Assembly (NCBI GenBank): GCA_029261895.1
Contig: JAJDAK010000064.1
Location: 18,582-82,581 of the forward strand
From: Deltaproteobacteria bacterium
GTDB taxonomy: Bacteria > Myxococcota_A > UBA9160 > SZUA-336
Reading direction: 5' to 3'
Length of the DNA stretch: 64,000 bases
The notes beneath the pieces were generated by a model. The model saw nothing but the letters and a program-made list of their open reading frames with translations, made no database searches and was not told where the DNA came from. A program made the translations under genes and the position numbers. Shown here piece after piece: positions 3,001 to 55,981 of this stretch. Each line of letters opens with the position of its first letter. Within the stretch, counting starts at the first letter, position 1.

Positions 3001-4916
3001 CGAGTCCATAGGAATCGAATTGCTCGTCGGGATCGATTTCGTCAACGTCAAGACCACAGATACCCGCGAGTCGCTCGACCAGTAATGACTCAATGGCTGA
3101 GGTGTCCAGACCGCTGCTGTCTTGTTCAGTCGTTTGGTCGGCTGTGCTTGGTTCAGACCATTCAGCAACAATTGCCAGTTCGCTGCTGAGAAACTGGTTC
3201 CGACACAAGCGCCGTTGAATCTTGCCACTCGATGTCTTGGGAATACTGCGTGCTTTGACCAGGACGACGGCGTGGGGTGCAACGTCGTGCTCAGCGATAA
3301 TCTGCCGACGGATGAGTTGTAAAACCTCTTTGGGTTCTAATCCCTCAACGACGTTAACTTCCTGGACTACAACGAGCTTCTCTTCGTTATCGTGCTCGAT
3401 CGAAAATGTGGCACTGCAGCCTGGCCGAACTGCAGCGTGGACTGAGTCACAGCTGAATTCGATGTCTTGTGGATAGTGATTGCGCCCTCGGATGATGATT
3501 AGATCCTTGAGGCGACCTGTGATGTAGAGTTCGTCGTCGTGGAAGAATCCAAGATCGCCAGTGCGTAAAAACGTTTGGTGATTATCGGACGAAAGTCGGG
3601 CACCAAAAGTCTCTTGGCTCTCCTCGGGTCGATGCCAGTAGCCGGAAGAGACACTCGGTCCAGAAAGCCAAATCTCACCAATTCGGTCCGGCGCTACGGG
3701 TTCGTGAGATTCAGGGTCTACGACCTCCGCCCGCAGGTCGTCCCGCGGCTGACCTTGCCCAACAAGTACGCGAGCTACCGCATTCGCATCGGCGATCTTG
3801 ATCTCATTGTTCTCAAGCGCATCTGCGTCCAAGCGAGCAACACCGAGCGGGGCATCTAACTCGCCACCGGTCACCATGAGCGTCGCTTCGGCGAGTCCGT
3901 AGGCCGGTCGAAAGGCGTTTTGCCGAAAGCCACAATCTGCAAAGACGGAGGCAAAACGTTCAAGTGTTTGATGACGAACAGGCTCTGAACCCACCATCGC
4001 GACCTGCCAACTGCTCAAGTCCAATTTAGCGCGATCGTCCGCTCCAATTCGTCGTACGCAATAGTCGAACGCGAAGTTGGGGCCGCCGCTAAGGGTTCCA
4101 CGATAGTGTGAAATAGCGCGCAGCCAGCGTAGAGGTTCCTGTATGAAAGCCTCGGGTGGCATAAAGACCGAATGCCCGCCGCAATAGACCGTCTGAATCA
4201 CATTCCAGATCAAACCCAGATCATGAAAGAGGGGGACCCAGCTAACCATGACGGATCCCGGTATGCGTCCCCATGCATTTCGAAGCATCTCGGAGTTTGC
4301 AGTTAAATTGCCGTGGCTCACCACAACGCCCTTGGGTTCGCCCGTTGAGCCTGACGTGTACTGCAGGTAGGCAGGCGAGTCAGGCCGCGCTACGAAATCA
4401 AACGCATCAGCAAAGCCTTCGAGGAGGCTATCAGTGGGTAACCAAGTACAGCCTTTGAACTTAGGTGCGTTTGCTTCGATCTCATGGCTGCGAGCTGCAA
4501 GCTCCGCGTTCGTCAGGACTAGCCGTGCACCTGAGTCAACCAAGATGCTCTGCAACCGCGGCAAAGTACGCGCCGCTCGGGCCAGATTGGGAGCGGGCGT
4601 GGGTACCGCAATGGCACCGGCATAGAGACAGCCGTAGAGCGCCACGATGAACTCGATCCCCGACGGAAGGATTACTAAAACGGGTTTGCCCTGTGCCTCA
4701 TGCTTGCGCAGCTCAGCCGCAACCTGCCTGGCACGACGGTCAAGTTCCGAGTAGGAGAGATTTATTTCGCCAGTGTTGTTTTCACCGTTAGGTAGAAACG
4801 TAAACGCGATCTTATCTGCGTTCAACCGAGAGAACCTACGGAGCCTATCTACGATAGGTTCAGGATTCAGCTCTTGACCTTCCTGCTGGGGCAATTCAAA
4901 AACCTCGTCAGGCATG
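1..4916 (-). CDS. Non-ribosomal peptide synthetase, partial (C-terminal part runs off the window start). Domain order from the N-terminus is fatty acyl-AMP ligase (FAAL), carrier (T), condensation (C), adenylation (A).
   Basis: A continuous minus-strand frame with no stop between 4916 and 1 (absent from the ORF track because it is open at the window edge). The start is ATG at 4916-4914 (MPDEVFELPQQ). FAAL/AMP-binding motifs are YLQYTSGSTGEPKGVVVSHGNL and a later YTSGSTGRPKGV with GELYIGGAGLARGY and a TGDLARL-type core. The carrier motif is FDSYGLDSARAIGL. The condensation region has MHHIVSDAES (HHxxxDG-like). Confidence 0.85.
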
Positions 4917-4980
4917 TACCGTGGCAGTCAATGCGATGCGCAACATCACGTTAACTGAGTTGTTGCAACCTGATTCACCA

Positions 4981-4990
4981 CTATTATAAG
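4981..4990 (-). promoter_or_regulatory. Candidate -10 box (TATAAT on the minus strand) about 65 nt upstream of the NRPS start codon, in the AT-richer 4920-5120 intergenic region
   Basis: The minus strand reads ...cggaatctcttataatagtgg... The -35 is weak (atccac). Confidence 0.2.
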
Positions 4991-5304
4991 AGATTCCGCT
5001 ACGAGGTGGATTCCGATCGCAACCACGAACTATCATTTGAAATCATCCGCGCGTATTCCCCGATTATTGTGTCAATATTTGAGTAGGTTCGATCCCAAGC
5101 GCAATTTTACACCGACTCATTTAGCACTAGATACACGGGCAATATGAGGAGAGTGGTAAACCCAGCATATAGGTGTCGAGCGCGGATGCACGATGCGCAA
5201 CTGTCGCGCAGCGTCGTTGGGGGTTGCGCGTGTGGTGTGCAAAGTATCCGCGCTAAACACGCAGCTATGCAGCATGCTGCGTGCTTCTACGGCTGTTTGA
5301 TTTT

Positions 5305-7014: not shown

Positions 7015-10000
7015 TTAGGGAGTCTCGTCGAGCCGATCGATCAAATAGGCTCGGAGATTTTCGGGCGAAACAATCGCTTCCAATGAACCGACTTTGAGCG
7101 CGCGCTCTACTGTGTGTACGCGGTCAAATTCCGTCGCGACTTCGGCCTGCTTTTCTAGTCGTACGGCATGCTCGATAGAATCGAGTTCCTCACGCGAACT
7201 GAAAGCGCCATTAATCTTGGCCGTGCGCAGGTTTCGAATCCTCTGATCCGCGGCCATGCGTGCACGGACTTCGCGGTGAAAAACAACCGCCGCCGCAGGC
7301 CCGCCTCCGATCACCGATGCAAACGAGCCGGTGAGTGCGGTTGCACGAAGCTCGGAGTTGAGCTCGCGCGAAAACACGACGTAAGCGCCGCCGTGATAGC
7401 GGGACACTACAGTGAAGAGTAGGGGACCCTTGAAATTGACCACCGCGCGCGCGATTTCGGCACCGTACTCGAGCTGCAGCGCTCGCATGGATTCGGGCGA
7501 CCCGTCAAAGCCCGAGAGATTCGCAAGAATCACGGCAGGTCGATTACCGCTCGCAGCGTTGATCGCGCGTGCCAGTTTTTTGGAAGACAATGGGAACAGA
7601 GTGCCGCCTGACCAGGTCGACGGTCCGTCAGTGGATGCATAGCCCTCGCGTGGTAGAGGTTGACTCTCAATACCGATCAGTGAGATCGCATGTCCGCCGA
7701 GCCGTGTGTCCCAGACGATGGTGGTACCTGCGTCCTGCCAGCGGAGCCAACGTTCCAGGTAGCCTGCGTCTTGGTCCACAGTTGCGCGCATCACATCGCG
7801 CATCGCGAATGCGCATTTACGTTCCGGGTTTTTAGATGCACTGAATATATCGCCGACACGTTCAAAGCCATGGTCTGCATTAGGTTCGCACGCATACTCG
7901 GTGATGTTGCGGTCTCGAGGGTCGGCTGTTGCAGTCCGTGATGGTCGAGAGGTACCAGAAGCGACGTAGGTGAAGCGATAGTGTTCATAGAGCGTCTGAT
8001 ACGCATCGAATAAACTCCGCGCGTAGTACTGGGCTTCGCCGTTGGGGCCCATGACTCGCTCAAAACCGCCGATCGCAACCTCGTCCTCCGCCGAGACCGA
8101 TCCGGAAGCTTCCAGCGCCGCGCGTCCAGTGAGAACCATCGCACCCGCCGGCGTCATGATCAATGCGCCACGGGACCGAGAGTGCATGGTTGCGAGTGCA
8201 TTAAAGTAGCTTTGCGCGCCGACGTTCACTCCTGAAACCAAGATATGAATTGTTCCGCCAGCCTCTGTAAATTCGATGATTCGACGGACTACGCGTGCCG
8301 TCGCGTCTAAGTTTTCTGTGCCGCTATCCATAGCGATCCGAGCACCGCTGGAAATGGGCACCCATTCAACCGGCACCTCATTGCGCTCCGCCAGATCGAT
8401 TGCAGCCTGTATGCGATCGCATTCTCTTGCACTGAGCGCGCCCATGCCTTGGGTCGGATCGGAAAGGATCAGCATGCGACGAATTCCGCTGGGGAACTCC
8501 GGTGTTGGCGTGTTGATTAGTCCGACCACAACGCCTGCCGTGTTTTGCCCGTAGTTTCGATCCGCGACACTCATTAGCCGTGGCTCGGTGCTTTCAGGGT
8601 CCAGATCGTATTCCTGAAACTGGCCTGTAGGGAGGCGTACCGCGTCGGAATCCGAGCTCAACCCGTTGGCTCGTGCACCGCCCGTGAGCATACGAATGAT
8701 CTCGTAGGGATAGATGAGTCCGTGACGCCGCGCCCGAACCAATTTGCGTTCGTAATCTTGCGCAGGTTCCAAAGGCGCATGATGGACGGAGCGCGCGTAG
8801 ACCTCGGAGTGTGCGCCCGTAGGATCTGCAATGACCAATTCGATGGGACCGTCGGCCCCGTCTTGAATCGGTTGCTCGACCCGAACTACAACTTTTTCCA
8901 GCCCCAAATGACGAACCGCCGGTGCCAATCGATGGATCACCGGCTTGGTTGTTTCCGCGTCCACAGAAACCGGGGATGCAACCGCAAGAAAGATTCGGTT
9001 CCACTGCAATTGGCGACGGGGGTCTCGCTCGCCGATGACGTGGCGTAGGGTACGCGCAGCTTCAAAGAACGCGTGCTCGAACTCGGGAATCAGTAAGGTG
9101 TCGGGATCTGTCCCGCCGACGATATCCGCCAGAACAAAAATTCTTTCATCACTCGGTACCTCTTTGCTGCGTAGGTGGAAGCAGAAAAGGTCTTCGGGGG
9201 CGTCCAATCTTTCGAGGTCAAAGGCCTGTAACCGCTCGAGTCCTACGCGTGCTGCGGTTTCGGGATGTATTCCATGCAACTCCTTCTGGAGTACGACTTG
9301 TCCGTCACAGCACAAGAAGCTGAGATGTTGCGGCGCCAACTGCGCGCGCTGAAGCGTGATGCAAAGGCGTTTAAACGGGAATTCGCTATGAAGCTGATGT
9401 AGTACAGCGCTGGCGAGTTCGTCTTCTTTGATATCATGCTCGCAGTCAACGAAGAGTTCCAATGCGGTCGGTTGGATGGATTGGGCCAAGCGTCCGATCT
9501 GATTCAAGCAAGAGCTTAGTTCATCGAGTCTGGTTCGGGTCGCCCAGACCGTGCGACCATCGTCGAACTCAAAGCATTCGATGGTGGGATGAGTGTTTGC
9601 TAACAGGCTGGGACCATTGGATACGTGCGGTACATAGAGTCGGGCAACGATAGCTTCGATGGAATCCGGTCGATCGGCTCTACCCATGGCATTCTTCTCT
9701 AGCACGGGTCGATTGAAAATCGTGTATGCGGTCTCGATCGCGAGATCTGCAACAGAATCGGACACGAGGCCTCGGAGTCCAGCGATCGCGATCAACGACG
9801 CGTGGAAAGCCTGGTCGGCTTCAAGGTTGAGCCCGCTCGCCGCAAGCGCACCGAGAAGCTTGGTGATTCCTAGCACCAGACGCAGCCGCCGGTCACGGGA
9901 TTGCTGTGACGCGAGCAGGCGCAACAAACCGCGCTCTAGGCCGGCACTGGGTTCTAGTCGGGTGACGCCGTAGTGCGCAAGCGCGTGTTCAAGGAGAATC

Positions 10001-12444
10001 CGAAAGTTTGGTGAAACTCCTTCGCCAGCCGCACCGATCCGCCGCATGTACTTACGTAGATGCGCGTGGTTGGAGAAGCCCAATTCACCCTCGATCGAGG
10101 CTTGTGGGCGTTTGACGAAAAGGCGTTCGATATCGACGAATGTTTGGAGTTCATGTCGGAGTTCAGAAAGTTCCAAGCGAAATGTTTCAGGCAAGTCGTC
10201 TGGAACCTCTGCGTTCAGGATCGCGAGCAGCAGGTCGCACCGTTGGGGATTAAGATCGTATCCCATCAACACACGACGAATTTCATTTCGTGCACCATCG
10301 ATTGCGTTTAATCGATGTTCCCTTGTGTCTCCCGCCGCAGAACTGAGGTCGGGGACCAGGTCTGCGGCTTCGTCAGTGGAGCGAAAAAAAGTCTCCAGTG
10401 GATCAGGCTCCGCCGGAAATTCGATGCGTAGTTTTGAAGCTGGTTCACTGACCTCGAGAGAGTCGGTAGCATCTGGTTCGATGATTACGAGGAGATCAGT
10501 ATCGCTCACCTGTTGACCCATCTGCACGCGAACTTCTTTGACTTGACCGGCTATGGGTGACTGAACCGCAATTTCCATCTTCATGGCTTCCAAAAGACCC
10601 AATGATTGGCCAGGGACTACGTGGTCGCCCTTAGCGATATGTATTGCGGTCACGCGTGCAGGTGCTTGCGCACGGACGTAGCCCGCAAGGTCACTACCAA
10701 AACGATAGGGATGGCTTTCGACTTCTATGCGAATGCCTTGTTCAGATACGTCGTGAAGCACTCGCAGTGCACGCCCTTCACGTTCCAGTGATGCGACATT
10801 CAAATCCCGTGCAAGGAGGGTCGCGTGTACGACTTTTCCATCGAGGTATACACGGTATTTCCAGGCGCCAACTGCGAATACATCAAGCCGATATTCCTCA
10901 AGACTGTGCGTGAGCTGAATCTGTTGTCCTGTTGACGCAGGGATCCAGTTCGGGGAGAGATTGCCTGGGTCGGTAAGAAACTTTCGGCGTGCCGCGTCTC
11001 GATTTCGCTGATACGAGAGAATCGCCGCCGCGATCAGGGCATCGCTAAGGTAGCGATCGGACCCGTCTCGAAGCGCGGGATTCTGGTCCAGCCACTCCGT
11101 GTCAAACCGACCTGCACGAAAGGTCGGATGATCAAGTAAATGGATCAAAAACCCCTTGTTACTTGTGCCGCCCTGAACCACGAGTTCGAAGTCTTTCAGT
11201 CCAGCGAGCAAGCGTGCGTGCGCTTCCTCGCGTGTTTGTCCGCTGGCAATGACTTTGGCGATCAGCGAATCGAATGCTGCGGGTATCTCGGCACCACCGA
11301 CGATGTCGGTGTCAATGCGTATCCCGGGACCGTGGCACGGTGCGAAGTGAACGATCCGGCCGGGTGAAGGTTGAAATCCCGTGGCCGGGTCCTCTGCGCA
11401 GACTCGAGCTTCCAGCGCGAATTTTCCAGGCGCGTTAGGTTGAATCGAAAGCACTTCGCCTTGTGCAATACGAATCTGTTGATGGATCAGGTCGATGCCC
11501 GTAACGGCTTCGGTGATTCCGTGTTCAACTTGGAGTCGTGGATTGACTTCGAGGAAGTAGATGTGGTTTTCAGAGACCAGGAATTCAACGGTTCCAACGC
11601 CGCGGTACTCTGCCTGGGTTGCGAGTCGAACAGCGAGATCTTCGATCTCCTGTAGCAGTTCAGTGGGTAGATTAGGAGGCGGAGTTTCTTCCAATACCTT
11701 CTGATGTCGTCGTTGAACCGAGCAGTCCCGGCAACCGAGTGCGATCACGTGGCCATACATATCCGCCACGATTTGCACTTCGATATGTCGACCGTGTGGA
11801 AGTTTCTTCTCGATAAAGAGCGTATCGTCGCCGAACGCTGACTTGGCTTCAGCGGCGGCGGAGCGAAACGCATCGGGGAGTTCTGCGGGCGTCTCCACAA
11901 TGCGGATGCCGCGACCGCCACCGCCCGCGCTTGCTTTGACGACCAACGGAAAGCCCACGCGTTTTGCGCAATCTCGAGCCGCATCCAGGGTATCAACGCG
12001 ACTACCGCTCCAGGGAATGACTGGAACGCCAGCGGCTACAGCGAGTTGCTTCGCACAGATTTTGTCACCGAGGCTGCGCATTACATCAGCGGGAGGCCCT
12101 AAAAAACAAATGCCAGTCTGGTCCAGGCGGGAGACAAACTCTGGATCTTCGGATAGAAATCCCCAACCAGGCCATACGGAATCTGCACCGACGTCTTGGA
12201 TGGCGCGAATCAAACCGTCGTAGTCGAGGTAGGCTTGAACGGGTCCGTCTGGGGAGGGGAGTCGTACGGCCCGATCCGCATGACGCACAAAGCTCGCGTC
12301 GCGGTCGACGTCGGTATAGAACGCAACGCACTCGAGCTCCACGTTTTCCAGTTCGCGAAACGTTTTGACCGCACGGATACAGCGCATCGCGGGCTCGCTA
12401 CGATTGACAATCGCCAGACGTCTTAAGTTACGACGATGTGTCAT
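7015..12444 (-). CDS. Single-polypeptide multidomain acyl-CoA carboxylase (biotin carboxylase, biotin carboxyl carrier and carboxyltransferase domains), about 1809 aa
   Basis: ORF 7015..12525 trimmed to ATG 12444 (MTHRRNLRRLAIVNRSEPAMRCIRA). BC domain: ATP-grasp with EVNPRLQVEH. Biotinyl-lysine motif: EAMKMEI. C-terminal half: carboxyltransferase N and C subdomains (SGGARI, LIMTPAGAMVLTG). Confidence 0.85.
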   Translation of the reverse strand: MTHRRNLRRLAIVNRSEPAMRCIRAVKTFRELENVELECVAFYTDVDRDASFVRHADRAVRLPSPDGPVQAYLDYDGLIRAIQDVGADSVWPGWGFLSEDPEFVSRLDQTGICFLGPPADVMRSLGDKICAKQLAVAAGVPVIPWSGSRVDTLDAARDCAKRVGFPLVVKASAGGGGRGIRIVETPAELPDAFRSAAAEAKSAFGDDTLFIEKKLPHGRHIEVQIVADMYGHVIALGCRDCSVQRRHQKVLEETPPPNLPTELLQEIEDLAVRLATQAEYRGVGTVEFLVSENHIYFLEVNPRLQVEHGITEAVTGIDLIHQQIRIAQGEVLSIQPNAPGKFALEARVCAEDPATGFQPSPGRIVHFAPCHGPGIRIDTDIVGGAEIPAAFDSLIAKVIASGQTREEAHARLLAGLKDFELVVQGGTSNKGFLIHLLDHPTFRAGRFDTEWLDQNPALRDGSDRYLSDALIAAAILSYQRNRDAARRKFLTDPGNLSPNWIPASTGQQIQLTHSLEEYRLDVFAVGAWKYRVYLDGKVVHATLLARDLNVASLEREGRALRVLHDVSEQGIRIEVESHPYRFGSDLAGYVRAQAPARVTAIHIAKGDHVVPGQSLGLLEAMKMEIAVQSPIAGQVKEVRVQMGQQVSDTDLLVIIEPDATDSLEVSEPASKLRIEFPAEPDPLETFFRSTDEAADLVPDLSSAAGDTREHRLNAIDGARNEIRRVLMGYDLNPQRCDLLLAILNAEVPDDLPETFRLELSELRHELQTFVDIERLFVKRPQASIEGELGFSNHAHLRKYMRRIGAAGEGVSPNFRILLEHALAHYGVTRLEPSAGLERGLLRLLASQQSRDRRLRLVLGITKLLGALAASGLNLEADQAFHASLIAIAGLRGLVSDSVADLAIETAYTIFNRPVLEKNAMGRADRPDSIEAIVARLYVPHVSNGPSLLANTHPTIECFEFDDGRTVWATRTRLDELSSCLNQIGRLAQSIQPTALELFVDCEHDIKEDELASAVLHQLHSEFPFKRLCITLQRAQLAPQHLSFLCCDGQVVLQKELHGIHPETAARVGLERLQAFDLERLDAPEDLFCFHLRSKEVPSDERIFVLADIVGGTDPDTLLIPEFEHAFFEAARTLRHVIGERDPRRQLQWNRIFLAVASPVSVDAETTKPVIHRLAPAVRHLGLEKVVVRVEQPIQDGADGPIELVIADPTGAHSEVYARSVHHAPLEPAQDYERKLVRARRHGLIYPYEIIRMLTGGARANGLSSDSDAVRLPTGQFQEYDLDPESTEPRLMSVADRNYGQNTAGVVVGLINTPTPEFPSGIRRMLILSDPTQGMGALSARECDRIQAAIDLAERNEVPVEWVPISSGARIAMDSGTENLDATARVVRRIIEFTEAGGTIHILVSGVNVGAQSYFNALATMHSRSRGALIMTPAGAMVLTGRAALEASGSVSAEDEVAIGGFERVMGPNGEAQYYARSLFDAYQTLYEHYRFTYVASGTSRPSRTATADPRDRNITEYACEPNADHGFERVGDIFSASKNPERKCAFAMRDVMRATVDQDAGYLERWLRWQDAGTTIVWDTRLGGHAISLIGIESQPLPREGYASTDGPSTWSGGTLFPLSSKKLARAINAASGNRPAVILANLSGFDGSPESMRALQLEYGAEIARAVVNFKGPLLFTVVSRYHGGAYVVFSRELNSELRATALTGSFASVIGGGPAAAVVFHREVRARMAADQRIRNLRTAKINGAFSSREELDSIEHAVRLEKQAEVATEFDRVHTVERALKVGSLEAIVSPENLRAYLIDRLDETP

Positions 12445-13004
12445 GCACAGGCAAAAGCCACGAAGCGGCCGTGATGGGAAAGAGAAACGGGAAGACCGCG
12501 CTGTAGATCGCCAATGTGTAGCCACGGCATCCGGCGCTTTCGCTCGATCGTGATATTCGAAGCAGCGATGCCCCAGCGCTTGGCCAGCTGTTCGCGGACG
12601 AGACGGCGTACCTCGATACTCTGGGCATCGCTGTCGAGTGCGAAGTCAAAACAACGCAGAGCATGGAAGGGTTCGGTTTCAGACCGCGTCTGGGCAATCG
12701 CGTGAACGTAGTCCGGTCCGTTAAAAAAATGGACGGTGAGGTCGTGTTGCTGATGGATTAGGTTTGCCTTATGGCCGCGGATGGGTCCGCAGACGAAACA
12801 GCGCGGAGAAAATGGCAGTCGTGAGTCCATACGGCGTAATGCTTTGAATGCGGCTTCCTTGGCTGCCCAAAACATCCACCGGGCACGCATGGGGTCGGTC
12901 GACTGTTCAATCATGTCCCGCTCCGAATCTGCGAATACCCGCGAGTCGAATCTCGGATGCGTCTGTTTCGCGCTGGATAGGTCGACCAGGTCATTACCGA
13001 TCAT
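12441..13004 (-). CDS. 4-prime-phosphopantetheinyl transferase, Sfp/EntD type
   Basis: Motifs GNDLVDL and WAAKEAAFKA (PPTase motifs 2 and 3). Start chosen at MIGNDLVDL. Overlaps the carboxylase start by 4 nt and the upstream acyltransferase stop. Confidence 0.75.
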   Translation of the reverse strand: MIGNDLVDLSSAKQTHPRFDSRVFADSERDMIEQSTDPMRARWMFWAAKEAAFKALRRMDSRLPFSPRCFVCGPIRGHKANLIHQQHDLTVHFFNGPDYVHAIAQTRSETEPFHALRCFDFALDSDAQSIEVRRLVREQLAKRWGIAASNITIERKRRMPWLHIGDLQRGLPVSLSHHGRFVAFACA

Positions 13005-13737
13005 CGAAGTATTCTCGCTCCATGTGTGCAAGCCGCCCCACGATTTGCTGGGAGATATCCCGTGCCGCGCGCAGGCCACTACTTTCTGTTTTAGGGTCGA
13101 AGAGTTCTATTATGACTGAGAAGCGTTCATTTCGGTGCGGCAGGTTGGAATAGGTTCCCTGTCCATCGCCGCGTAAATAGACACAAAGCACGCGACAGCG
13201 GGGAATTGAATCGATCAAGCCGCCGACGCCGTAGGCAGCGTTCGTTACGTCTATGCGACCGCTGCGGCTGCGTCCCCCTTCGGGGAATACCATGCCGACC
13301 TCACCGTTTTCGACGCAGAAACCAAATCGACTCATCGTGGCCTGAACTTCCTTTCGAGGCCCGCCACGTTGAATGGGTATGCACTTGAATAGGTAGGATA
13401 GGACGCGAAGCGCGATGCCGTGAGAGAAGTTTGTGCGCTCTGGAACGTTCCATGGCAACGCATGGAAGTTCCTGAGGTACCATCCCGGAGACCCTAGAGC
13501 CCAAGCGATGATGGCGGAATCCACCATCGTCAAATGATTCGGGCAGATCATCAACGGAGCGTCATTGGAGTCGAGGATCCGCCGATATTCGCGTCGCAGG
13601 TGGACTTGATCCCGAATCTGATATCCGAAGCCAAAACGCATGAGCATGATTACCGAAGGAACCGTCAGCGGTGCGAATATTAGGCTGATCCAACGCTGGA
13701 GTTGTATGCGTAGATATGTGCCTGCAGAAACGTTCAC
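12994..13737 (-). CDS. PlsC-family (lysophospholipid/glycerol-3-phosphate-type) acyltransferase
   Basis: HxxxxD motif NHLTMVD and acceptor-binding motif VFPEGGRS. GTG start forms a GTGA overlap with the ACP stop. Confidence 0.8.
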   Translation of the reverse strand: MNVSAGTYLRIQLQRWISLIFAPLTVPSVIMLMRFGFGYQIRDQVHLRREYRRILDSNDAPLMICPNHLTMVDSAIIAWALGSPGWYLRNFHALPWNVPERTNFSHGIALRVLSYLFKCIPIQRGGPRKEVQATMSRFGFCVENGEVGMVFPEGGRSRSGRIDVTNAAYGVGGLIDSIPRCRVLCVYLRGDGQGTYSNLPHRNERFSVIIELFDPKTESSGLRAARDISQQIVGRLAHMEREYFDDR

Positions 13738-13985
13738 GCGCCGAGCTTCGACTCGATCAGTTGTACCGCATTCTCGACGGTTTCCACGAGATCGATGTCT
13801 TCATCCTCGATCTGGATGTCGAACACATCTTCAAACTCGAGGATGATGTCTACGAGTCGTGCGGAGTTTATTTTTAGGTCATCGAGCAAGTGCGTCTTGA
13901 GGGAAATCTTATCGCGCGCGTCTTCGTTTCGAATAAACGGCGCAAGGATGGAAATGATTTTGTCAAAGATATCTTGTCGATTCAT
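13734..13985 (-). CDS. Acyl carrier protein
   Basis: 83 aa, acidic, with DDLKINSARLVDII (DSL-type phosphopantetheine attachment Ser). RBS AAGGAGG lies 7 nt upstream. Confidence 0.85.
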   Translation of the reverse strand: MNRQDIFDKIISILAPFIRNEDARDKISLKTHLLDDLKINSARLVDIILEFEDVFDIQIEDEDIDLVETVENAVQLIESKLGA

Positions 13986-14012
13986 GAATGGCCTCCTTAG
14001 GGTGAAGTGAAT

Positions 14013-15293
14013 CTAGGCGTTCTGCCAATTACCGATCATCAAACACGCATTCACATCGCCGAATCCGAACCCAGCTTTCGCTGCGATCCGTAGTTCGGGT
14101 GCGTCGCGCGTCGTACGGGGTATTGAATGCGAATACCTTTCGATCTCAGGATGAACATCCTCGCAGTTGATCGAAGGATGAATGAAACCTTCGTAGAGCA
14201 TTTGGACGGTAGCAATCGATTCAATCGCACCCGCCGCCCCGAGACTGTGACCGATCATCGATTTGGTGGAGGTGATCGGAGGCAGGTGATCGGGCGTCTG
14301 CTCCAACGCTGTCGCCCAAGCCGCGACTTCCTTTGGATCTGCTCCCGTGGCGGTGAGGTGACCGTTGATGAGACCTACTTCCGATCCGCTGATTCCCGCA
14401 TCTTGCAATGCTGCACGGATACAACGCACAACACCGTTGGGATTAGGTGCGCTCATACTGCCGCCACCACGGTGTCCACCACAGTTGAGCGCGGTTCCTA
14501 GGATCTCCGCGTAGATTCGTGCACCGCGTTGAACCGCGCTCTCGTAGGACTCGAGCAAGAGTACTCCGGCGCCCGCGCTGGGGACGAATCCACCCGCGGA
14601 AGCACTCATGGGTCGGGAAGCTTCTTCTGGGCGATCGTTGAATCCTCGACAGAGCACACGCATGGAATCAAAACCAGCATAGATGTAATGGCTTGCAGCT
14701 TCGGCGCCGCCGCAGAGCATGCGTTCCGCGAGTCCCTGGCGAATTCGATTCGTGCCTTCGGCGATAGCTTCGGTACCTGTGCTACACGCGCTCGAATTGG
14801 TGGTGACTTGGTTCCCGAGTGCAAGCAACCCGGAGATCCGTGCGGAGATACCACTTGCCATGACCTGTTCGACGACGGTACTTCCGAGACGACGAATCTT
14901 GCCCGCATTCGTGAGGGGTACGATGCGTTCGGCGATCGTGTCCATGCCACCAATGCCTGTTCCCAAAATGGCACCTGTATCCCAGTCGACGCGGTCGCTT
15001 TCGGCCTCAGGTCGTTTGAATCCCGCATCTTCCCAGGCATCCACCGCTGCGATACTTGCCAGACGATGACTTGAATTCATGGCGAGCAACTGCTCGCGAC
15101 TGAAATAACGTGATGCGATCTCATCGACACCTTGAGGAATGCCTGCGACCTGGCAACCGAAGCCGAGTTCAGCCATGATAGGATTGAGTCGAATTCCTGA
15201 CTTGCCTTCGCGGAGTGACTGCGTAAACGCGTGTAGATCGGATCCGTTGGCCGCGACGACGCCCATACCCGTGATGACGACCCGCCGTCTCAT
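14013..15293 (-). CDS. Beta-ketoacyl-ACP synthase I/II (FabB/FabF family)
   Basis: N-terminal VVITGMGVV. An internal segment reads TNSSACSTGTEAIAEG in the supplied translation, and the text Cys-His-His triad is HLTATGADPKE ... IGHSLGAAG. 426 aa. Confidence 0.85.
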   Translation of the reverse strand: MRRRVVITGMGVVAANGSDLHAFTQSLREGKSGIRLNPIMAELGFGCQVAGIPQGVDEIASRYFSREQLLAMNSSHRLASIAAVDAWEDAGFKRPEAESDRVDWDTGAILGTGIGGMDTIAERIVPLTNAGKIRRLGSTVVEQVMASGISARISGLLALGNQVTTNSSACSTGTEAIAEGTNRIRQGLAERMLCGGAEAASHYIYAGFDSMRVLCRGFNDRPEEASRPMSASAGGFVPSAGAGVLLLESYESAVQRGARIYAEILGTALNCGGHRGGGSMSAPNPNGVVRCIRAALQDAGISGSEVGLINGHLTATGADPKEVAAWATALEQTPDHLPPITSTKSMIGHSLGAAGAIESIATVQMLYEGFIHPSINCEDVHPEIERYSHSIPRTTRDAPELRIAAKAGFGFGDVNACLMIGNWQNA

Positions 15294-15727
15294 AGGGGAA
15301 CTCCGGTTCCAGAAAGCGTACCTGCACAGACCAGCGAACCACCGGGGAGGCGCATTTCGGCTGAGACGCGGAGCGTCCGCCGTCGATAAAAGACCTTCTT
15401 CGCCGAGGTCGTGACCTCAGTGCCGGGTAGCACGATTCCTGCGAACTCTACGTCCGCATGGGAGAAGAGGGTTGTAATCTTGGCGTCGGGATCCTCACGG
15501 TGCAATAGATAGAGTCCGAGCGCGACCACTGCCGCTTGCGCCATGGTTTCAATGAGAATGACGCCGGGTGTAATCGGCCGACTTGGGAAATGTCCGCGAT
15601 AGAAATCGGCATCTTCACGATAGCGATAAGTAGCGACGACATGATCTTCGTCGAGTTCTAGGATGCGATCGATAAAGCGAAACGGTTCTTGCTGTGGGAT
15701 CGCGGCCAGTATTTCTTCTTTTGTCAT
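15290..15727 (-). CDS. fabZ: 3-hydroxyacyl-ACP dehydratase, FabZ-like hotdog
   Basis: GHFPSRPITPGVILIETMAQ motif. ATGA overlaps on both flanks. Confidence 0.8.
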   Translation of the reverse strand: MTKEEILAAIPQQEPFRFIDRILELDEDHVVATYRYREDADFYRGHFPSRPITPGVILIETMAQAAVVALGLYLLHREDPDAKITTLFSHADVEFAGIVLPGTEVTTSAKKVFYRRRTLRVSAEMRLPGGSLVCAGTLSGTGVPL

Positions 15728-16320
15728 GACTCTCGCACGAGCCTCCCGCCGCGAGAATGTTTTGAAGGCCGTGGATAGTCGGGATAATCGATATTTCGAA
15801 ACGTTCCGACCTTGGCACGTTGAACGCTGTAAATCGGTTCGTCATCGACAAAGAGGGTCGCGTCGCCAAGAACCACTGACGCTCCGACGTTCGTCAGCTC
15901 GGTATAGCGCCGCACATCGACTTCGTAACGTATGAGTCGATCGTGCGGACGAACCTGTCCAAAGAATTCAACCTCGCCACAGCCCAACGCACGTCCTGCC
16001 CCAAGACCACCGCTCCAAGCACAGAAGAAACCAAGCAGTTGCCAGATTCCATCGACGCCCAAGCAACCCGGCTGGACAGGATCGCTCGCAAAGTGACATT
16101 GAAAGAACCAATCATCGAGCCTGACGTCGTACTCGGCGACGATTCGACCGCGTGTTTTCTGTCGATCGATCTCTAAGATGCGGTGAATCATCAGCATCGG
16201 AGGTAAGGGGAGGCGCGCTTTGAATTCGGCAGGAGCGTCAGAGATGAGCGTCCCATTTGCGAAGGCAAGCAGTTCCAATTGCGTGAAACTTTTGCGGTCT
16301 CGAAATTCGACGTAGTTCAT
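15724..16320 (-). CDS. fabA: 3-hydroxydecanoyl-ACP dehydratase/isomerase, FabA-like
   Basis: FFQCHFASDPVQPGCLGVDG matches the FabA active-site region. Start chosen at MNYVEF (ATGA overlap with the KAS III stop). The ORF extends to 16356 if the first Met is used. Confidence 0.75.
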   Translation of the reverse strand: MNYVEFRDRKSFTQLELLAFANGTLISDAPAEFKARLPLPPMLMIHRILEIDRQKTRGRIVAEYDVRLDDWFFQCHFASDPVQPGCLGVDGIWQLLGFFCAWSGGLGAGRALGCGEVEFFGQVRPHDRLIRYEVDVRRYTELTNVGASVVLGDATLFVDDEPIYSVQRAKVGTFRNIDYPDYPRPSKHSRGGRLVRES

Positions 16321-17312
16321 CGCGAATCCTCGGAACGGAGTAGGTAACTTGCCCAAGTCAAGCCTGCGCCTACGCCTGCGACGGCAATATCATCGATGGT
16401 GTCCCATTTTTCCCAACGCATCGAGATGACCGATGCGGAGCTGGCGCAGCCGGTGTTACCGAAAAACTCGACATTGCTGTGATGCTGTGACGTTGAAACT
16501 CCGGCAGCATGGCAAACGGATTCGAGCATACGTAGGTTGGCCTGGTGTCCGACGAAGTGGAAAGATCGGCCGGCGGTCTCATGCTGCTCGCGCAATGAAC
16601 GCACCGCTTGACTCATACGCCTGATTCCGAATGCCTGAACGGTTCGGCCTTCTTGATAGAAGTGGCCGATACGCGGCACGACCACTTTATCTGCGGCGCT
16701 GGGCTTAGATTGGAGCGACGGATTGAGCACACGAAATCGACCGGGGCGCCGGGTAGAGATCACCGCGGCCGCGGCACCATCGCCCCAGAGTACAGACGAC
16801 GAGCGATCCGCGTAGTCGACGGTCTTGGTGAGGGTATCGACTGCGACCAATAGGAGATACTCGGGAAGTGCATCGCTGCGCATCATCGACAGGAGATATA
16901 GCTGGGCGTAGAAACTGGTGCAGGCTGACCGTACGTCAAAACTCGGTACGTCGAGCCCTAGGGCTTGCGCGATATTGCAGGCTTCAGCGGGAGAGGCGGT
17001 ATCTGTCGCAGAGCTACCAGCGATGACCATGCCGATGGCTTCTTTCGGAACGGCTGCCCGTCGGAGCGCGTGCTCCGCGGCCCGTGCGCCAAGTTCTGCG
17101 TTCGATAGCGTCGCAGCTTCAATCGCTGCGCGTGGGTTTTGGTTTCGCGTTTCCCGAATGTAGTCGAGAGGCAAAACAGTTCGGCGTGAGCGTATCCCAA
17201 CGCGTTCGAGGATCCACTCATTCGAAGTTCCAATATCGAGCGATTCGAGGAAGGCGTTGGTTATTTCGTTTTCAGGATGGCAATGGCCGAGGCCGTGAAT
17301 GAAGGTATTCAA
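16317..17312 (-). CDS. fabH: 3-oxoacyl-ACP synthase III (FabH-like)
   Basis: Thiolase-fold KAS III with GNTGCASSA and C/H/N-type residues. Probable TTG start (MNTFIHGLGH) overlapping the upstream stop as TTGA. The alternative is ATG at 17372, which overlaps by 64 nt. Confidence 0.7.
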   Translation of the reverse strand: MNTFIHGLGHCHPENEITNAFLESLDIGTSNEWILERVGIRSRRTVLPLDYIRETRNQNPRAAIEAATLSNAELGARAAEHALRRAAVPKEAIGMVIAGSSATDTASPAEACNIAQALGLDVPSFDVRSACTSFYAQLYLLSMMRSDALPEYLLLVAVDTLTKTVDYADRSSSVLWGDGAAAAVISTRRPGRFRVLNPSLQSKPSAADKVVVPRIGHFYQEGRTVQAFGIRRMSQAVRSLREQHETAGRSFHFVGHQANLRMLESVCHAAGVSTSQHHSNVEFFGNTGCASSASVISMRWEKWDTIDDIAVAGVGAGLTWASYLLRSEDSR

Positions 17313-18256
17313 CGGGTCGCTCCGGAAATATGTTCGCCGCCGTCGACCCGGATGATTTCGCCGTTGATCCATGCGGCGTCATCCTGAGCGAGCAAGTGGA
17401 TTACGTTTGCAACATCGCGCGTCGTCGTGAGTCGACCGAATGGATTACGCGTCCTGGCTTGCGCTTTGAGGTGGTCGCTCCCCGGGATGGCTTTCAGTGC
17501 AGGTGTCTCCGTAATACCTGCTTGAATAATGTTGGTTCGGATACCGTATGGCGCAAATTCAAGCGCCATTGAGCGCGCAAGTGCTTCGAGCGCGACTTTG
17601 GCAGCCGATACTGCGGCATAGCCTTTCCAGGCGACCTTGTTTCCCTCGCTCGTAAGTCCGAAGACCCGTGCGTCGTCTGCAAAGAGATTCCTCGCGTGGA
17701 GACTTTGCACCCAACCCAACAAACTTGTTCCCATACTGTGGATGGTGCGACCGAAGTCTTCCTCGTCGAGAAACGAACGGGTTGGGTATTCGGGGGCTGT
17801 GGCCAAAGCATGTAGCCCGTCATGTCCTGCATTGAAAGATTCGTTGGCGAGGTCTTCCAGTCGGGAGGGCTCAACTCCGAGCCGTTGGGCCAGTTCATTT
17901 CGACTCGTATTGAGACGGGGTTTCTCTGCGACCAGCAGCTTCAAGTTTCCAAATGCGATTGAGTGCAGGAACAGCCTCACCCGACCCTGCGATCCGAGCT
18001 CAGACGTCAATTGATCCAGCACTTCTTCACGCTTCTCGGGGTTGAGTGCGTCGAGGTTAAGACAGAGAACTCGATGGCCGTGGCTGCGAACCTTTTCAAA
18101 CTCCGGTTCGATCTGTGCCATTGCGCCACGACGATCGCGGTGAATCAGGCAAAGATTCATGCCGTTTTCAGCCAGTTTATGCGCGGTCGCCAGGCCAAAG
18201 CCGCTCGAGCCGCCAAGGATCAACGCCCATTGATTCGGACCAAAGCGATCTACCAC
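17309..18256 (-). CDS. Enoyl-ACP reductase of the FabI/FabL/FabV SDR lineage
   Basis: GGSSGFGLATA nucleotide-binding loop, Y-x6-K catalytic motif (YAAVSAAK) and GIRTNIIQAG. GTG start. Confidence 0.7.
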   Translation of the reverse strand: MVDRFGPNQWALILGGSSGFGLATAHKLAENGMNLCLIHRDRRGAMAQIEPEFEKVRSHGHRVLCLNLDALNPEKREEVLDQLTSELGSQGRVRLFLHSIAFGNLKLLVAEKPRLNTSRNELAQRLGVEPSRLEDLANESFNAGHDGLHALATAPEYPTRSFLDEEDFGRTIHSMGTSLLGWVQSLHARNLFADDARVFGLTSEGNKVAWKGYAAVSAAKVALEALARSMALEFAPYGIRTNIIQAGITETPALKAIPGSDHLKAQARTRNPFGRLTTTRDVANVIHLLAQDDAAWINGEIIRVDGGEHISGATR

Positions 18257-18299
18257 TGCTCCCCCCCTGCCTACTGAGACCGTTCGTAGACGTAATTAA

Positions 18300-18343
18300 T
18301 GACTCTCAGTCACATCGGTGGCTGAGAATATGACTCAGAGTCA
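18300..18343. promoter_or_regulatory. Two 13-bp palindromes, TGACTCTCAGTCA (18300-18312) and TGACTCAGAGTCA (18331-18343), 31 bp centre to centre. Putative operator pair.
   Basis: Both are perfect TGACT-N3-AGTCA dyads. One lies in the promoter spacer and one at about +5 to +17. Confidence 0.45.
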
Positions 18344-18354
18344 TGGAGAGTCAA
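18325..18354 (-). promoter_or_regulatory. Sigma70-like promoter for the lipid cassette. On the minus strand it reads TTGACT-N18-TATTCT, and the spacer is occupied by a TGACT-N3-AGTCA palindrome.
   Basis: Minus strand: TTGACTctccatgactctgagtcaTATTCT. The -35 is plus 18349-18354 and the -10 is plus 18325-18330. Confidence 0.4.
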
Positions 18355-18547
18355 GTCCTGCTGTAGGTAATTGAAAAATATGAACTTTCTGGTACTCGAG
18401 GCGAGCAGATTTTTAATCAACCAGGAATCTGGGGGGTAAATGGGCTCCGAAGAATCTCATTTGAGCGGAATGTACTTGAGCGTGGAGGAGCGTGGCCTAA
18501 GTCGTTATACAGTGACCGCTTAGGGCTTGGGTATGTCACTTTGATAG

Positions 18548-18576
18548 CGCAGGTTCGAACCCTGCCTGGGTCACCA
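18548..18576 (+). repeat. 29-bp direct repeat identical to the 3-prime end of tRNA-Arg (6937-6965). Putative att-type island boundary.
   Basis: cgcaggttcgaaccctgcctgggtcacca occurs at both sites in the same orientation. The second copy has no D-arm or anticodon arm upstream. Confidence 0.7.
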
Positions 18577-55874: not shown

Positions 55875-55981
55875 CAAATGACTGATGGGTTAGTCTACTG
55901 AATCATGGGTCAGTAATGGAAGCCCCGTCCGTGGACGCACGGTCGTGGTACGATCAAGTCGCCGTGAAGGCAGGGGGGGCG

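What the first reader, a model, noticed from the sequence alone, without database searches (positions are those of the whole stretch)
18300..18354. Twin TGACT-N3-AGTCA palindromes overlapping a TTGACT-N18-TATTCT promoter upstream of the cassette
Two perfect 13-bp dyads with identical half-sites sit 31 bp apart (three helical turns). One fills the -35/-10 spacer and the other lies just downstream of the predicted transcription start. This is a textbook repressor-operator layout for a dimeric HTH regulator, implying the whole cassette is under specific repression. No regulator gene is adjacent. A G/C homopolymer of seven lies between the operator and the FabI-like start codon (18261-18267).
Basis: seen in the sequence. 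Interest (0 to 1): 0.5.

Follow-up and report, generated by a model that had tools for sequence, protein, structure and literature searches.

The report
Twin TetR-type operators on fatty-acid-synthesis promoter
Two identical 13-bp palindromes sit on the promoter of a self-contained fatty-acid-synthesis operon; the same promoter-plus-palindrome design recurs in dozens of uncultured bacteria and points to a fatty-acyl-CoA-sensing TetR-family repressor, encoded outside this window, as the switch.

Summary
TGACTCTCAGTCA (18300-18312) and TGACTCAGAGTCA (18331-18343) are the only two TGACTNNNAGTCA sites in 64 kb (0.02 expected). They lie on a minus-strand TTGACT/TATTCT promoter that drives an enoyl-reductase-to-carboxylase lipid operon.

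The repressor-operator reading holds up. In 41 related cassette loci the layout TTGAC-N6-TGACYNNNRGTCA, with a -10 that begins inside the dyad, is conserved. All 41 matches to the motif in about 1.1 Mb lie no more than 560 bp upstream of the reductase gene. Second dyads occur only 31-34 bp downstream.

The likely binder is a TetR-family protein. Half of 120 metagenomic twin-dyad loci carry a TetR gene beside the dyads. One conserved TetR family (P0121/P0203) is the last gene of a dyad-bearing cassette operon. It is also co-transcribed with stand-alone reductase genes behind the dyad, and it sits beside dyad-bearing ACP genes.

Its closest solved relative is PvrA, a palmitoyl-CoA sensor whose half-site is TGACCG/CGGTCA. 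No ortholog lies in this window.

Binding, ligand and transcription start are all inferred. This is a new regulon of a known kind and of moderate interest.

The parts
18331..18343 (.). Operator O1: dyad TGACTCTGAGTCA (read on the minus strand), inside the -35/-10 spacer with its last two bases in the -10
   Evidence: Exact match. The same position relative to TTGAC and to the -10 T is conserved in 32-35 of 41 related cassette promoters.
18300..18312 (.). Operator O2: dyad TGACTGAGAGTCA (minus strand), 31 bp downstream of O1, about +7 to +20 of the inferred transcript
   Evidence: Exact match. In relatives, second sites occur only at offsets 31, 33 or 34 bp: 8 loci at <=2 mismatches and 11 at <=3. 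The same 30-32 bp twin spacing is seen at autoregulated TetR genes.
18349..18354 (-). -35 hexamer TTGACT. Its TGACT is also a third half-site, 10 bp upstream of O1's left half
   Evidence: Promoter scan. TTGAC lies exactly 11 nt before the dyad in 32 of 41 loci. The 8-nt TGACTCTC also matches half of O2 (repeat I9).
18325..18332 (-). -10 region: CATATT (18332-18327, spacer 16) or TATTCT (18330-18325, spacer 18)
   Evidence: The T four nt after the dyad is present in 41/41 related promoters, which fits a CAnnnT -10 that begins inside the operator.
18257..18319 (-). Inferred 5' leader of about 63 nt. It contains O2 and the G-rich Shine-Dalgarno GGGGGGGAG (18267-18259)
   Evidence: Read from the sequence. 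It has no significant RNA structure (z = +0.97). The transcription start is inferred, not mapped.
17309..18256 (-). First gene of the regulated operon: FabI/FabL-like enoyl-ACP reductase (315 aa, GTG start) with an insertion of roughly 80-90 residues (query residues 109-196 unaligned to FabL)
   Evidence: Pfam and NCBIfam. Closest solved structure is FabL 3oic, and the insertion does not align to it. There are 6884 homologs at E<=1e-20, the best about 70% identical.
7015..17372 (-). Rest of the cassette: KAS III-like (16317-17372), FabA (15724-16356), FabZ-like (15290-15727), KAS I/II (14013-15293), ACP (13734-13985), PlsC-type acyltransferase (12994-13737), PPTase (12441-13079), single-chain biotin carboxylase/carboxyltransferase (7015-12525)
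   Evidence: The same gene order is found in L074, L075, L077, L081, L203/L208 and L219.

Best explanation
The two dyads are operators for a dimeric TetR-family repressor of the P0121/P0203 family, a distant relative of the palmitoyl-CoA sensor PvrA. They sit on a strong sigma-70-type promoter that drives the whole lipid cassette, from the enoyl reductase to the carboxylase. A dimer on O1 covers the spacer and the first bases of the -10. A second dimer on O2, three helical turns downstream and on the same face of the helix, covers +7 to +20. Together they exclude or trap RNA polymerase. By analogy with PvrA and other lipid regulators, occupancy is probably set by a long-chain acyl thioester, which would give end-product feedback on fatty-acid synthesis. 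The repressor gene is not in this window. In relatives it is either the last gene of the same operon, or co-transcribed with a stand-alone reductase, or placed beside an ACP gene elsewhere in the genome. Shown here: the sites, their conservation and register, and their genomic association with TetR genes. Inferred: binding, the sign of regulation, the ligand and the transcription start.
For: 1. Specificity. Two exact sites against 0.02 expected. TGACYNNNRGTCA occurs 41 times within 560 bp upstream of the reductase gene and 0 times elsewhere in ~1.1 Mb of 80 loci plus the window.

2. Fixed promoter register. TTGAC lies 11 nt upstream in 32/41 loci, and a T lies 4 nt after the dyad in 41/41.

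3. Second sites occur only at +31, +33 or +34 bp.

4. An unbiased metagenome scan for twin dyads returned 120 loci. Sixty have a TetR gene directly beside the dyads and 3 are reductase cassettes. Those TetRs share the recognition helix GVAKGTxYLYF.

5. Direct linkage. On contig Ga0118657_10012516 the promoter TTGACA-N5-TGACTTGCAGTCA precedes ER-KAS3-FabA-FabZ-KAS-ACP-AT-PPT-ACC-TetR, where the TetR is P0203. L007 and L210-212 have a dyad followed by an ER-like gene and a TetR. L213/214, L217 and L218 have the exact dyad between this TetR and an ACP gene.

6. The TetR family is as conserved as the reductase. It has 1302 homologs, the top 120 are 60-88% identical, and the recognition helix VAKGTLYRYF is present in 118/120.

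7. The best solved relative of P0203 is PvrA (E 7e-16, aligned over residues 16-199). PvrA binds palmitoyl-CoA, recognises CGGTCA/TGACCG, binds DNA better with the ligand and represses phaG (PMC10085694).
Against: No ortholog of the P0121/P0203 TetR lies in the 64-kb window. The only TetR there (55251-55877) is 27% identical to P0203 and has GLSKGT in place of GVAKGT. Whether the source genome has the ortholog could not be checked.

All evidence for binding is associative. PvrA shares only the TGACC half-site: its paired sites are reported mostly about 6 bp apart, not 13-bp dyads. PvrA also activates most of its targets, so the sign of regulation does not follow from homology.

Only about half of the PvrA CoA-contact residues align with identical residues in P0203 (my reading of the alignment), so the ligand is uncertain. 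Roughly half of the cassette loci, mostly Gemmatimonadota/Longimicrobiales, lack the dyad altogether.
Confidence: 0.72

Rival explanations
1. The dyads are operators, but for a regulator of another HTH class. One example is an Xre/BldD-like protein, since the BldD box TNAC-N5-GTNA has the same 13-bp geometry. A MarR or GntR protein encoded elsewhere is also possible.
For: The BldD box 5'-TNAC(N)5GTNA-3' (PMC4151990) is formally matched by TGAC-N5-GTCA. No regulator is linked in the window or in most relatives, so the identity of the binder is not proven.
Against: No Xre, MarR, GntR or DeoR gene appeared among 62 ORFs flanking dyad-bearing cassettes or among the window ORFs scanned. The only regulator class found repeatedly next to the dyad is TetR. 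BldD is described only for actinomycetes.
Confidence: 0.1
2. The binder is the window's own TetR (55251-55877). It heads an operon with a TolC-like outer-membrane protein 37 kb away and would cross-regulate the lipid cassette.
For: It is the only HTH regulator found in the window. Its best NCBIfam match is the Bacillus-type fatty-acid regulator FadR, though at 73.6 bits against a cut-off of 200. Its recognition helix [11 protein letters not shown] resembles the GVAKGTxYLYF of dyad-associated TetRs. Environmental TetR/efflux operons use the same twin-dyad promoter design.
Against: It is only 27% identical to the cassette-linked family. It lacks the VAKGT signature, which is present in 43 of 44 aligned dyad-associated TetR DNA-binding domains and in 118/120 members of the P0121 family. 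Its own 40-bp upstream region holds no TGACYNNNRGTCA but a different palindrome, TACTGA-N8-TCAGTA.
Confidence: 0.08
3. The sites bind a PvrA-like TetR that activates the promoter, or acts as a ligand-dependent dual regulator, and does not repress it.
For: PvrA activates most of its known targets, and its DNA binding is enhanced by ligand (PMC10085694).
Against: O1 occupies the spacer and the first bases of the -10, and O2 lies at +7 to +20. Both are inside the polymerase footprint, where bound proteins normally repress. The promoter has a near-perfect -35 (TTGACA in most loci) and often CATAAT, so it should not need an activator. The spacer is 16-18 bp and the dyad is not centred in it, so a MerR-type spacer-distortion mechanism does not fit.
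Confidence: 0.07
4. The dyads are not protein sites. They are chance palindromes, RNA or DNA hairpins, or a remnant of a mobile element or integration site, given the tRNA-like fragment 200 bp away.
For: Each dyad can form a 5-bp hairpin. A weak tRNA-like match lies at 18514-18573 (12.9 bits).
Against: Chance is excluded. The conserved dyad lies upstream of the transcript. The Y and R positions vary independently, with many TGACC...AGTCA and TGACT...GGTCA combinations, so base pairing is not what is conserved. The leader is no more stable than shuffled sequence (z +0.97). The element keeps a fixed register with -35 and -10 at orthologous promoters across many lineages, which no mobile-element remnant would do.
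Confidence: 0.02

Closest known systems
PvrA (PA2957) of Pseudomonas aeruginosa: TetR-family long-chain acyl-CoA sensor
   Same: It is the best solved relative of the cassette-linked TetR P0203, aligned over nearly the full length. Its reported half-site CGGTCA/TGACCG shares TGACC/GGTCA with the dyad. It controls lipid-related genes and represses phaG (PMC10085694).
   Different: The sequence relationship is distant, so it is not an ortholog. PvrA sites are reported as pairs mostly about 6 bp apart, not a 5-N3-5 dyad. PvrA mainly activates fatty-acid degradation genes. About half of its CoA-contact residues are not conserved in P0203 (my reading of the alignment).
TetR-type FadR of Bacillus subtilis (YsiA) and Thermus thermophilus; FabR and DesT of proteobacteria; FasR of actinobacteria
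   Same: These are TetR-family dimers that sense acyl-CoA or acyl-ACP and bind short palindromes overlapping the promoters of lipid genes (established knowledge). The best NCBIfam matches of the dyad-associated TetRs are to the Bacillus FadR model, all far below its cut-off.
   Different: All matches are below the family cut-offs, so none is an equivalog. The operator sequences I recall for these regulators differ from TGACYNNNRGTCA. FadR-type proteins control degradation genes, not a synthesis operon.
FapR (Bacillus) and FabT (streptococci): repressors of type II fatty-acid synthesis operons
   Same: The logic is the same: one repressor shuts down a whole fab operon from operators overlapping the promoter, in response to a pathway metabolite (malonyl-CoA or acyl-ACP).
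   Different: They belong to different protein families (DeoR-like plus hot-dog fold; MarR). No such gene was found near any cassette. The operator sequences differ as I recall them.
MftR of mycobacteria (acyl-CoA-responsive TetR)
   Same: Its operator core GGCA-N5-TGCC has the same 4-N5-4 geometry as TGAC-N5-GTCA, and long-chain acyl-CoA is the effector (PMC8728441).
   Different: The half-site sequence differs, the footprint is 27 bp, and the target (mycofactocin genes) is unrelated.
FarR-FarE of Staphylococcus aureus (TetR plus MMPL fatty-acid efflux pump)
   Same: The divergent TetR/MMPL gene arrangement with several operators is what 42 of the 120 metagenomic twin-dyad loci show. FarR responds to fatty acids (PMC12671165).
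   Different: This is a resemblance in gene arrangement only. The FarR operator sequence was not retrieved, and as I recall it differs. Those loci are in low-GC gut bacteria and have no link to the cassette.
BldD box of Streptomyces (TNAC-N5-GTNA)
   Same: An identical 13-bp pseudo-palindrome geometry, and TGAC-N5-GTCA is formally an instance of it (PMC4151990).
   Different: BldD is an actinomycete Xre-type developmental regulator that depends on c-di-GMP. No such gene is associated with the dyad here.

Membership tests
Operator of a PvrA-like (acyl-CoA-sensing) TetR-family regulator | Palindromic site built from TGACC(G)/(C)GGTCA-type half-sites | tested here: met
   Both window dyads are TGACT-N3-AGTCA. 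The consensus over 49 sites is TGACY-N3-RGTCA. The PvrA half-site is CGGTCA/TGACCG (PMC10085694). The spacing between half-sites differs from that reported for PvrA.
Operator of a PvrA-like (acyl-CoA-sensing) TetR-family regulator | Cognate TetR gene present in, or linked to, the regulated locus in this window | tested here: not met
   The only TetR in the window (55251-55877) is 27% identical to P0203 and has no dyad at its own promoter. No other HTH regulator turned up among the window ORFs scanned.
Operator of a PvrA-like (acyl-CoA-sensing) TetR-family regulator | Cognate TetR gene linked to the same operator in related loci | tested here: met
   In L208/L203 the dyad promoter precedes a cassette that ends in TetR P0203. 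L007 and L210-212 have a dyad, then an ER-like gene, then a TetR. L213/214, L217 and L218 have the dyad between the TetR and an ACP gene.
Operator of a PvrA-like (acyl-CoA-sensing) TetR-family regulator | Regulator has a TetR_N HTH plus a ligand domain homologous to PvrA | tested here: met
   Pfam TetR_N plus TetR_C_24/29. PvrA is the best PDB match, E 7e-16 over residues 16-199.
Operator of a PvrA-like (acyl-CoA-sensing) TetR-family regulator | Demonstrated DNA binding modulated by an acyl thioester | not testable with these tools
   This needs EMSA or footprinting with and without palmitoyl-CoA, acyl-ACP or malonyl-CoA.
Sigma-70-type promoter | -35 and -10 hexamers at 16-18 bp spacing, conserved at orthologous positions | tested here: met
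   (window). TTGAC is present in 32/41 loci, and the -10 A and T in 41/41. The transcription start itself was not mapped.
MerR-type spacer operator | Over-long 19-20 bp spacer with the dyad centred in it | tested here: not met
   The spacer is 16 or 18 bp. The dyad starts 5 bp after the -35 and runs into the -10, so it is not centred.
FapR / FabT / GntR-type FadR control of fab genes | A DeoR-hot-dog, MarR or GntR regulator gene associated with the locus | tested here: not met
   No such Pfam family appeared among 62 ORFs flanking dyad-bearing cassettes or among the window ORFs scanned. A gene elsewhere in the genome cannot be excluded.
BldD box | TNAC-N5-GTNA bound by an actinomycete BldD (Xre-type, c-di-GMP-dependent) | tested here: inconclusive
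   The sequence geometry is met. No Xre-type gene is linked, and the organisms are not actinomycetes as far as the MAG labels show.
Cis-acting RNA element (leader hairpin or riboswitch) | Transcribed, with a stable or covarying structure, or a match to a known RNA family | tested here: not met
   O1 is upstream of the transcript. There is no Rfam match at the gathering threshold and only chance-level matches at E<=10. The leader fold has z +0.97. The Y and R positions do not covary.

The most novel reading that the evidence does not exclude
The cassette, its promoter and its operator may form a self-regulating, horizontally mobile fatty-acid-synthesis module. That would be a complete type II synthase with its own ACP, PPTase, acyltransferase and single-chain carboxylase, controlled by a dedicated PvrA-like TetR that binds more tightly when loaded with long-chain acyl thioester (product co-repression). 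The repressor gene is sometimes carried as the last gene of the operon and sometimes moved next to the housekeeping ACP gene. This TetR would then be the master regulator of lipid synthesis in large uncultured lineages (Myxococcota-type MAGs) for which no such regulator is known.
Probability: 0.3. Interest if true: 0.6.

Novelty: new member of a known kind. Interest (0 to 1): 0.42.

Why it matters
How uncultured Myxococcota-like bacteria regulate membrane-lipid synthesis is, as far as I could find, unknown. This work predicts a regulator-operator pair in a directly testable form:

- a 13-bp operator, TGACYNNNRGTCA;
- a defined promoter architecture;
- a conserved TetR family, with a solved distant relative that senses palmitoyl-CoA;
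- a small lipid regulon: the cassette, stand-alone reductase genes and an ACP gene.

The pair also provides a compact, portable operator/repressor design that may respond to acyl-CoA and could serve as a biosensor. The same 13-bp dyad is used by other TetR regulators next to MMPL and efflux genes in gut and soil bacteria. These share the recognition-helix signature VAKGT, which hints at a readable DNA-recognition code within the TetR family.

Tried and rejected
- **Literature string search.** TGACTNNNAGTCA and four variants occur in no paper in the library.
- **Known lipid-regulator operators.** The papers read gave no operator sequence for C. glutamicum FasR/fasO or S. aureus FarR. M. xanthus AibR binds ACCTACCG-N2-CGGTAGGT, which does not match. 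A search for the B. subtilis FadR box consensus found nothing usable.
- **Regulator by linkage.** ORF clustering and a Pfam scan of 62 ORFs flanking the dyad-bearing loci found no HTH protein. This failed partly because the 8-kb flanks stop before the end of the carboxylase gene, which is where the TetR sits in L203.
- **Window TetR (55251-55877).** Rejected as the ortholog.
- **Enzyme acting as its own repressor.** The reductase insertion contains an HTH-looking stretch, NELAQRLGVEPSRLEDL. In the family consensus the would-be recognition helix is acidic and lacks conserved basic or polar residues. I dropped the idea without a structure prediction.
- **RNA explanations.** Rfam found nothing at gathering or E-value thresholds, and the leader fold is not significant.
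- **Source organism.** The window's reductase is not on record for context look-up, and its cluster carries no name or accession. The rest of the 101,752-bp contig and of the genome could therefore not be searched for the TetR.
- **Same-genome test.** I tried to match TetR contigs to cassette contigs by length or WGS prefix. Only one pair matched, P0083 and P0203 on a 15,967-bp contig, and that pair gave the key locus.
- **Long conserved leader in 13 relatives.** RNAalifold found no supported structure.

Full report
**1. The observation**

The window holds TGACTCTCAGTCA at 18300-18312 and TGACTCAGAGTCA at 18331-18343. These are the only exact matches to TGACTNNNAGTCA in 64 kb. Dinucleotide-preserving shuffles give a mean of 0.02, and none of 100 reached two. 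With up to two mismatches the window has 15 matches against 18.9 expected. Only the two perfect copies stand out.

**2. Local anatomy**

Read on the minus strand, the region is TTGACT-CTCCA-TGACTCTGAGTCA-TATTCT-(18 nt)-TGACTGAGAGTCA-(43 nt)-GGGGGGGAG-CA-GTG.

- The promoter scan reports TTGACT (18354-18349) with CATATT at a 16-bp spacer or TATTCT at an 18-bp spacer.
- The GTG at 18256 opens a 315-aa FabI/FabL-like enoyl-ACP reductase.
- Behind it, on the same strand, come a KAS III-like gene, FabA, a FabZ-like gene, KAS I/II, ACP, a PlsC-type acyltransferase, a PPTase and an 1836-aa single-chain biotin carboxylase/carboxyltransferase.
- The divergent neighbours are a DUF3467 protein and an unannotated ORF. 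No regulator is adjacent.

**3. Conservation across relatives**

The reductase has thousands of homologs at about 65-72% identity. A scan of species-representative genomes returned 80 loci, mostly MAGs labelled Myxococcota or Deltaproteobacteria, Gemmatimonadota/Longimicrobiales, or Spirochaetales.

- Exact TGACTNNNAGTCA occurs 14 times in the 39 kb lying within 500 bp upstream of the reductase gene, and 0 times in the other 1.05 Mb.
- The relaxed form TGACYNNNRGTCA occurs 41 times within 560 bp upstream and 0 times elsewhere, counting the whole window.
- The sites align into one architecture. Over the 41 cassette loci carrying the dyad, which also include loci fetched later, TTGAC lies exactly 11 nt before the dyad in 32 and one nt further in three more.
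- A T lies four nt after the dyad in 41 of 41.
- The -10 therefore reads CAnnnT, often CATAAT, and begins with the last two bases of the operator.
- The closest relative of the window gene (P0003, 70% identical) has TTGACG-N6-TGACTGTTGGTCA-TATTCC.

This is the pattern expected of a protein-binding site fused to a promoter.

**4. The twin arrangement**

Eight of the 41 loci have two exact sites. The start-to-start spacings are 31, 31, 31, 33, 34, 34, 43 and 84 bp. Scanning every offset from 14 to 99 bp, near-matches (<=2 mismatches) pile up only at 31, 33 and 34 bp. Eight loci reach that level, and 11 reach <=3 mismatches. The second operator is thus an optional but position-constrained accessory. 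It lies about three helical turns from the first, over roughly +5 to +20.

**5. Not an RNA or DNA structure**

- The conserved dyad lies upstream of the transcript.
- The Y and R positions vary independently, with many mixed TGACC...AGTCA and TGACT...GGTCA sites.
- The window leader folds no better than shuffled sequence (z +0.97).
- Rfam finds nothing.

**6. Which protein binds?**

Linkage failed at first. No HTH protein appeared among 62 ORFs flanking dyad-bearing cassettes. The window holds a single TetR, 37 kb away, in an operon with a TolC-like gene.

I then scanned metagenome contigs for TGACYNNNRGTCA-N10-40-TGACYNNNRGTCA. The sample of 120 loci broke down as follows:

- 60 have a TetR-family gene directly beside the dyads;
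- 42 have a divergent MMPL-type transporter, mostly in low-GC gut bacteria;
- 3 are reductase cassettes;
- the rest are tandem repeats or isolated hits.

The dyad-adjacent TetRs span 25-74% GC. They share an almost invariant recognition helix, GVAKGT(F/V/L)YLYF. High-GC members sit behind TTGACA-N2/3-dyad-TTTAnn, with a second dyad 30-32 bp later. That is the same design as in the window.

**7. Direct links between a TetR and the cassette**

A tblastn search with these DNA-binding domains against the cassette loci found TetR genes in a few of them.

- **L007.** A reductase homolog is followed by a TetR whose start overlaps the reductase stop (ATGA). A near-consensus dyad, TGACTTACCGTCA, lies 181 bp upstream.
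- **The family.** That TetR (P0121) defines a family with 1302 homologs at E<=1e-10. The best 120 are 60-88% identical. The named members come from Myxococcota or Deltaproteobacteria MAGs, and the helix VAKGTLYRYF is present in 118 of 120.

Its genomic contexts fall into three classes:

- **(A) Last gene of the cassette.** On the 15,967-bp contig Ga0118657_10012516 (loci L203 and L208), TTGACA-AAAAG-TGACTTGCAGTCA-TTCTCC lies 130 bp before the reductase. The operon runs through the carboxylase and ends with TetR P0203, which overlaps the carboxylase stop.
- **(B) With a stand-alone reductase.** In L210-212 an exact dyad lies 166 bp before a reductase-like gene that is co-directional with the TetR.
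- **(C) Beside an ACP gene.** The conserved neighbourhood is TruD-PALP-(hexapeptide transferase)-TetR-ACP-PolA. An exact dyad lies between the TetR and the ACP gene, downstream of a TTGACA promoter, in L213/214, L217 and L218, the last being the complete genome CP070734.1.

Other cassette lineages carry different, divergently transcribed TetRs. L077 has two TGAC-N6-GTCA dyads. L074 and L075 have none. Six TetRs that are not next to an N5 dyad all lack VAKGT.

**8. Link to a characterised protein**

The best solved relative of P0203 is the chain shared by 7w2o, 7y0y and 8hjb (E 7e-16, residues 16-199). This is PvrA of P. aeruginosa. According to PMC10085694, PvrA binds palmitoyl-CoA, recognises 5'-CGGTCA-3'/5'-TGACCG-3', binds DNA better with the ligand, represses phaG and activates fatty-acid utilisation genes. 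In the alignment, about half of the CoA-contact residues listed in that paper align with identical residues in P0203: Y92, F106, E110, L137, W163 and S175.

**9. Proposed mechanism**

A dimer of a P0121/P0203-type TetR binds O1 and blocks the -10 and the spacer. In promoters that have O2, a second dimer binds on the same helical face over the start region. This may happen cooperatively and should tighten repression.

Because the operon makes fatty acids, the sensible logic is one of two:

- co-repression by a long-chain acyl thioester, as for PvrA-enhanced binding and for FabT, FabR and DesT; or
- release by a precursor, as for FapR.

I favour the first. What is shown: the sites, their statistics, their conserved register with the promoter, and their association with TetR genes and with one TetR family in three lipid contexts. 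What is inferred: physical binding, the sign of regulation, cooperativity, the ligand, the transcription start, and the presence of the ortholog in the source genome.

**10. Rivals**

- **Another HTH class.** The BldD box has the same geometry. This remains possible but has no genomic support.
- **The window's own TetR.** It is a weak candidate.
- **Activation.** The position of the sites and the strength of the core promoter argue against it.
- **Chance, hairpin or mobile-element remnant.** These are excluded by sections 1, 3 and 5.

**11. Novelty and score**

No paper in the library contains the motif. None of the regulators I looked up has this operator. The kind of system, a TetR-family acyl-thioester sensor with palindromic operators on lipid-gene promoters, is well known. 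I therefore rate this as a new member of a known kind. It is a clean and testable regulon prediction for uncultured lineages, useful but not surprising, and I score its interest at about 0.4.

Noticed in passing
window 18514-18573 (+), within the 337-bp intergenic region between the promoter and the DUF3467 gene: A tRNA-like fragment with a good T-arm and 3' acceptor end (GCAGGTTCGAACCCTGC-CTGGGTCACCA). It scores only 12.9 bits against the Rfam tRNA model, and ARAGORN does not call it. It may be a decayed tRNA or the remnant of an integration site.
   Followed up: partly
window 1-5300: About 5.3 kb of normal GC content (52-59%) with no ORF longer than 115 aa, no Pfam match for its ORFs and no tandem repeats. 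It could be a heavily frameshifted large gene or non-coding DNA.
   Followed up: partly
window 15290-16356, compared with L081 12573-13328 and L077 10563-11264: The window cassette has no ketoreductase (FabG-like) gene between FabA and FabZ. L074, L075, L077 and L081 do have one. L203/L208 and L219 share the KR-less form, so two variants of the cassette exist.
   Followed up: partly
window 17309-18256 (reductase residues ~109-196): The enoyl reductase carries an insertion of roughly 80-90 residues relative to FabL (residues 109-196 do not align to 3oic). The insertion is conserved across the family and includes an HTH-looking but acidic stretch, NELAQRLGVEPSRLEDL. Its role is unknown; it might be a lid or an ACP-docking surface.
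   Followed up: partly
window 55878-55915 (between TetR 55251-55877 and the CarD-like gene starting at 55916): This 40-bp divergent intergenic region contains a perfect 6-N8-6 palindrome, TACTGA-ATCATGGG-TCAGTA (55896-55915). It is probably the operator of the window's own TetR/TolC-like operon.
   Followed up: no
L011, L018, L025, L033, L035, L037, L038, L041, L042, L045, L055, L063, L069 (for example L037 7590-7900): In 13 relatives the dyad promoter lies 320-520 nt before the reductase. The ORF-free leader has strongly conserved blocks (AATTTTGCGAGAGATTTGCA, CCGCTACTTTT, GTCGCAGCGAG, CCCCC-AGGCTGCGTC). There is no Rfam match, and RNAalifold finds no supported structure. It could be an unannotated leader element or a second protein-binding site. 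The window has no counterpart.
   Followed up: partly
L020, L021, L023, L027, L034, L036, L048, L068, L073, L076, L078, L080 (about 120-190 bp upstream of the reductase start): Gemmatimonadota/Longimicrobiales cassettes lack the dyad. Instead they share a nearly invariant block, TTCCTAGTCAGGACCGCTCCCCTTTGGTATCCTTGT, which looks like a promoter with an extended -10, followed by a conserved leader of about 100 nt. This suggests a different control system for the same operon.
   Followed up: no
L086, L091, L107, L111, L120, L126, L136, L150, L180, L191 and others (metagenome loci, GC 25-50%): In gut and other low-GC bacteria, divergent TetR/MMPL-transporter gene pairs carry two or three TGACYNNNRGTCA dyads. 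One dyad starts inside the -35 (TTGACTnnnGGTCA-N8-TATAAT). These TetRs share the helix GVAKGTFYLYF. This is a large, apparently undescribed operator class resembling the FarR/FarE gene arrangement.
   Followed up: partly
L077 7700-7960: A cassette lineage with a divergent EthR_C-type TetR has two TGAC-N6-GTCA dyads, one base wider than the N5 motif, in the shared intergenic region. A different TetR appears to recognise a closely related operator.
   Followed up: no
L204 9697, L206 9692, L213 9718, L217 9718: A dyad or near-dyad (TGACCGTCGGTCA-like) recurs about 300 bp upstream of the TetR start, inside the preceding hexapeptide-transferase gene. It could be an internal autoregulatory operator, or simply conserved coding sequence.
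   Followed up: no
L210 and L219 (same metagenome sample, 3300041074): The ER-like/TetR mini-operon (L210) and the full cassette (L219) lie in partly similar neighbourhoods: a Leu/Phe-transferase gene, a 256-aa SDR and a family-3 glycosyl hydrolase. Related genomes may carry either form at the same site.
   Followed up: no
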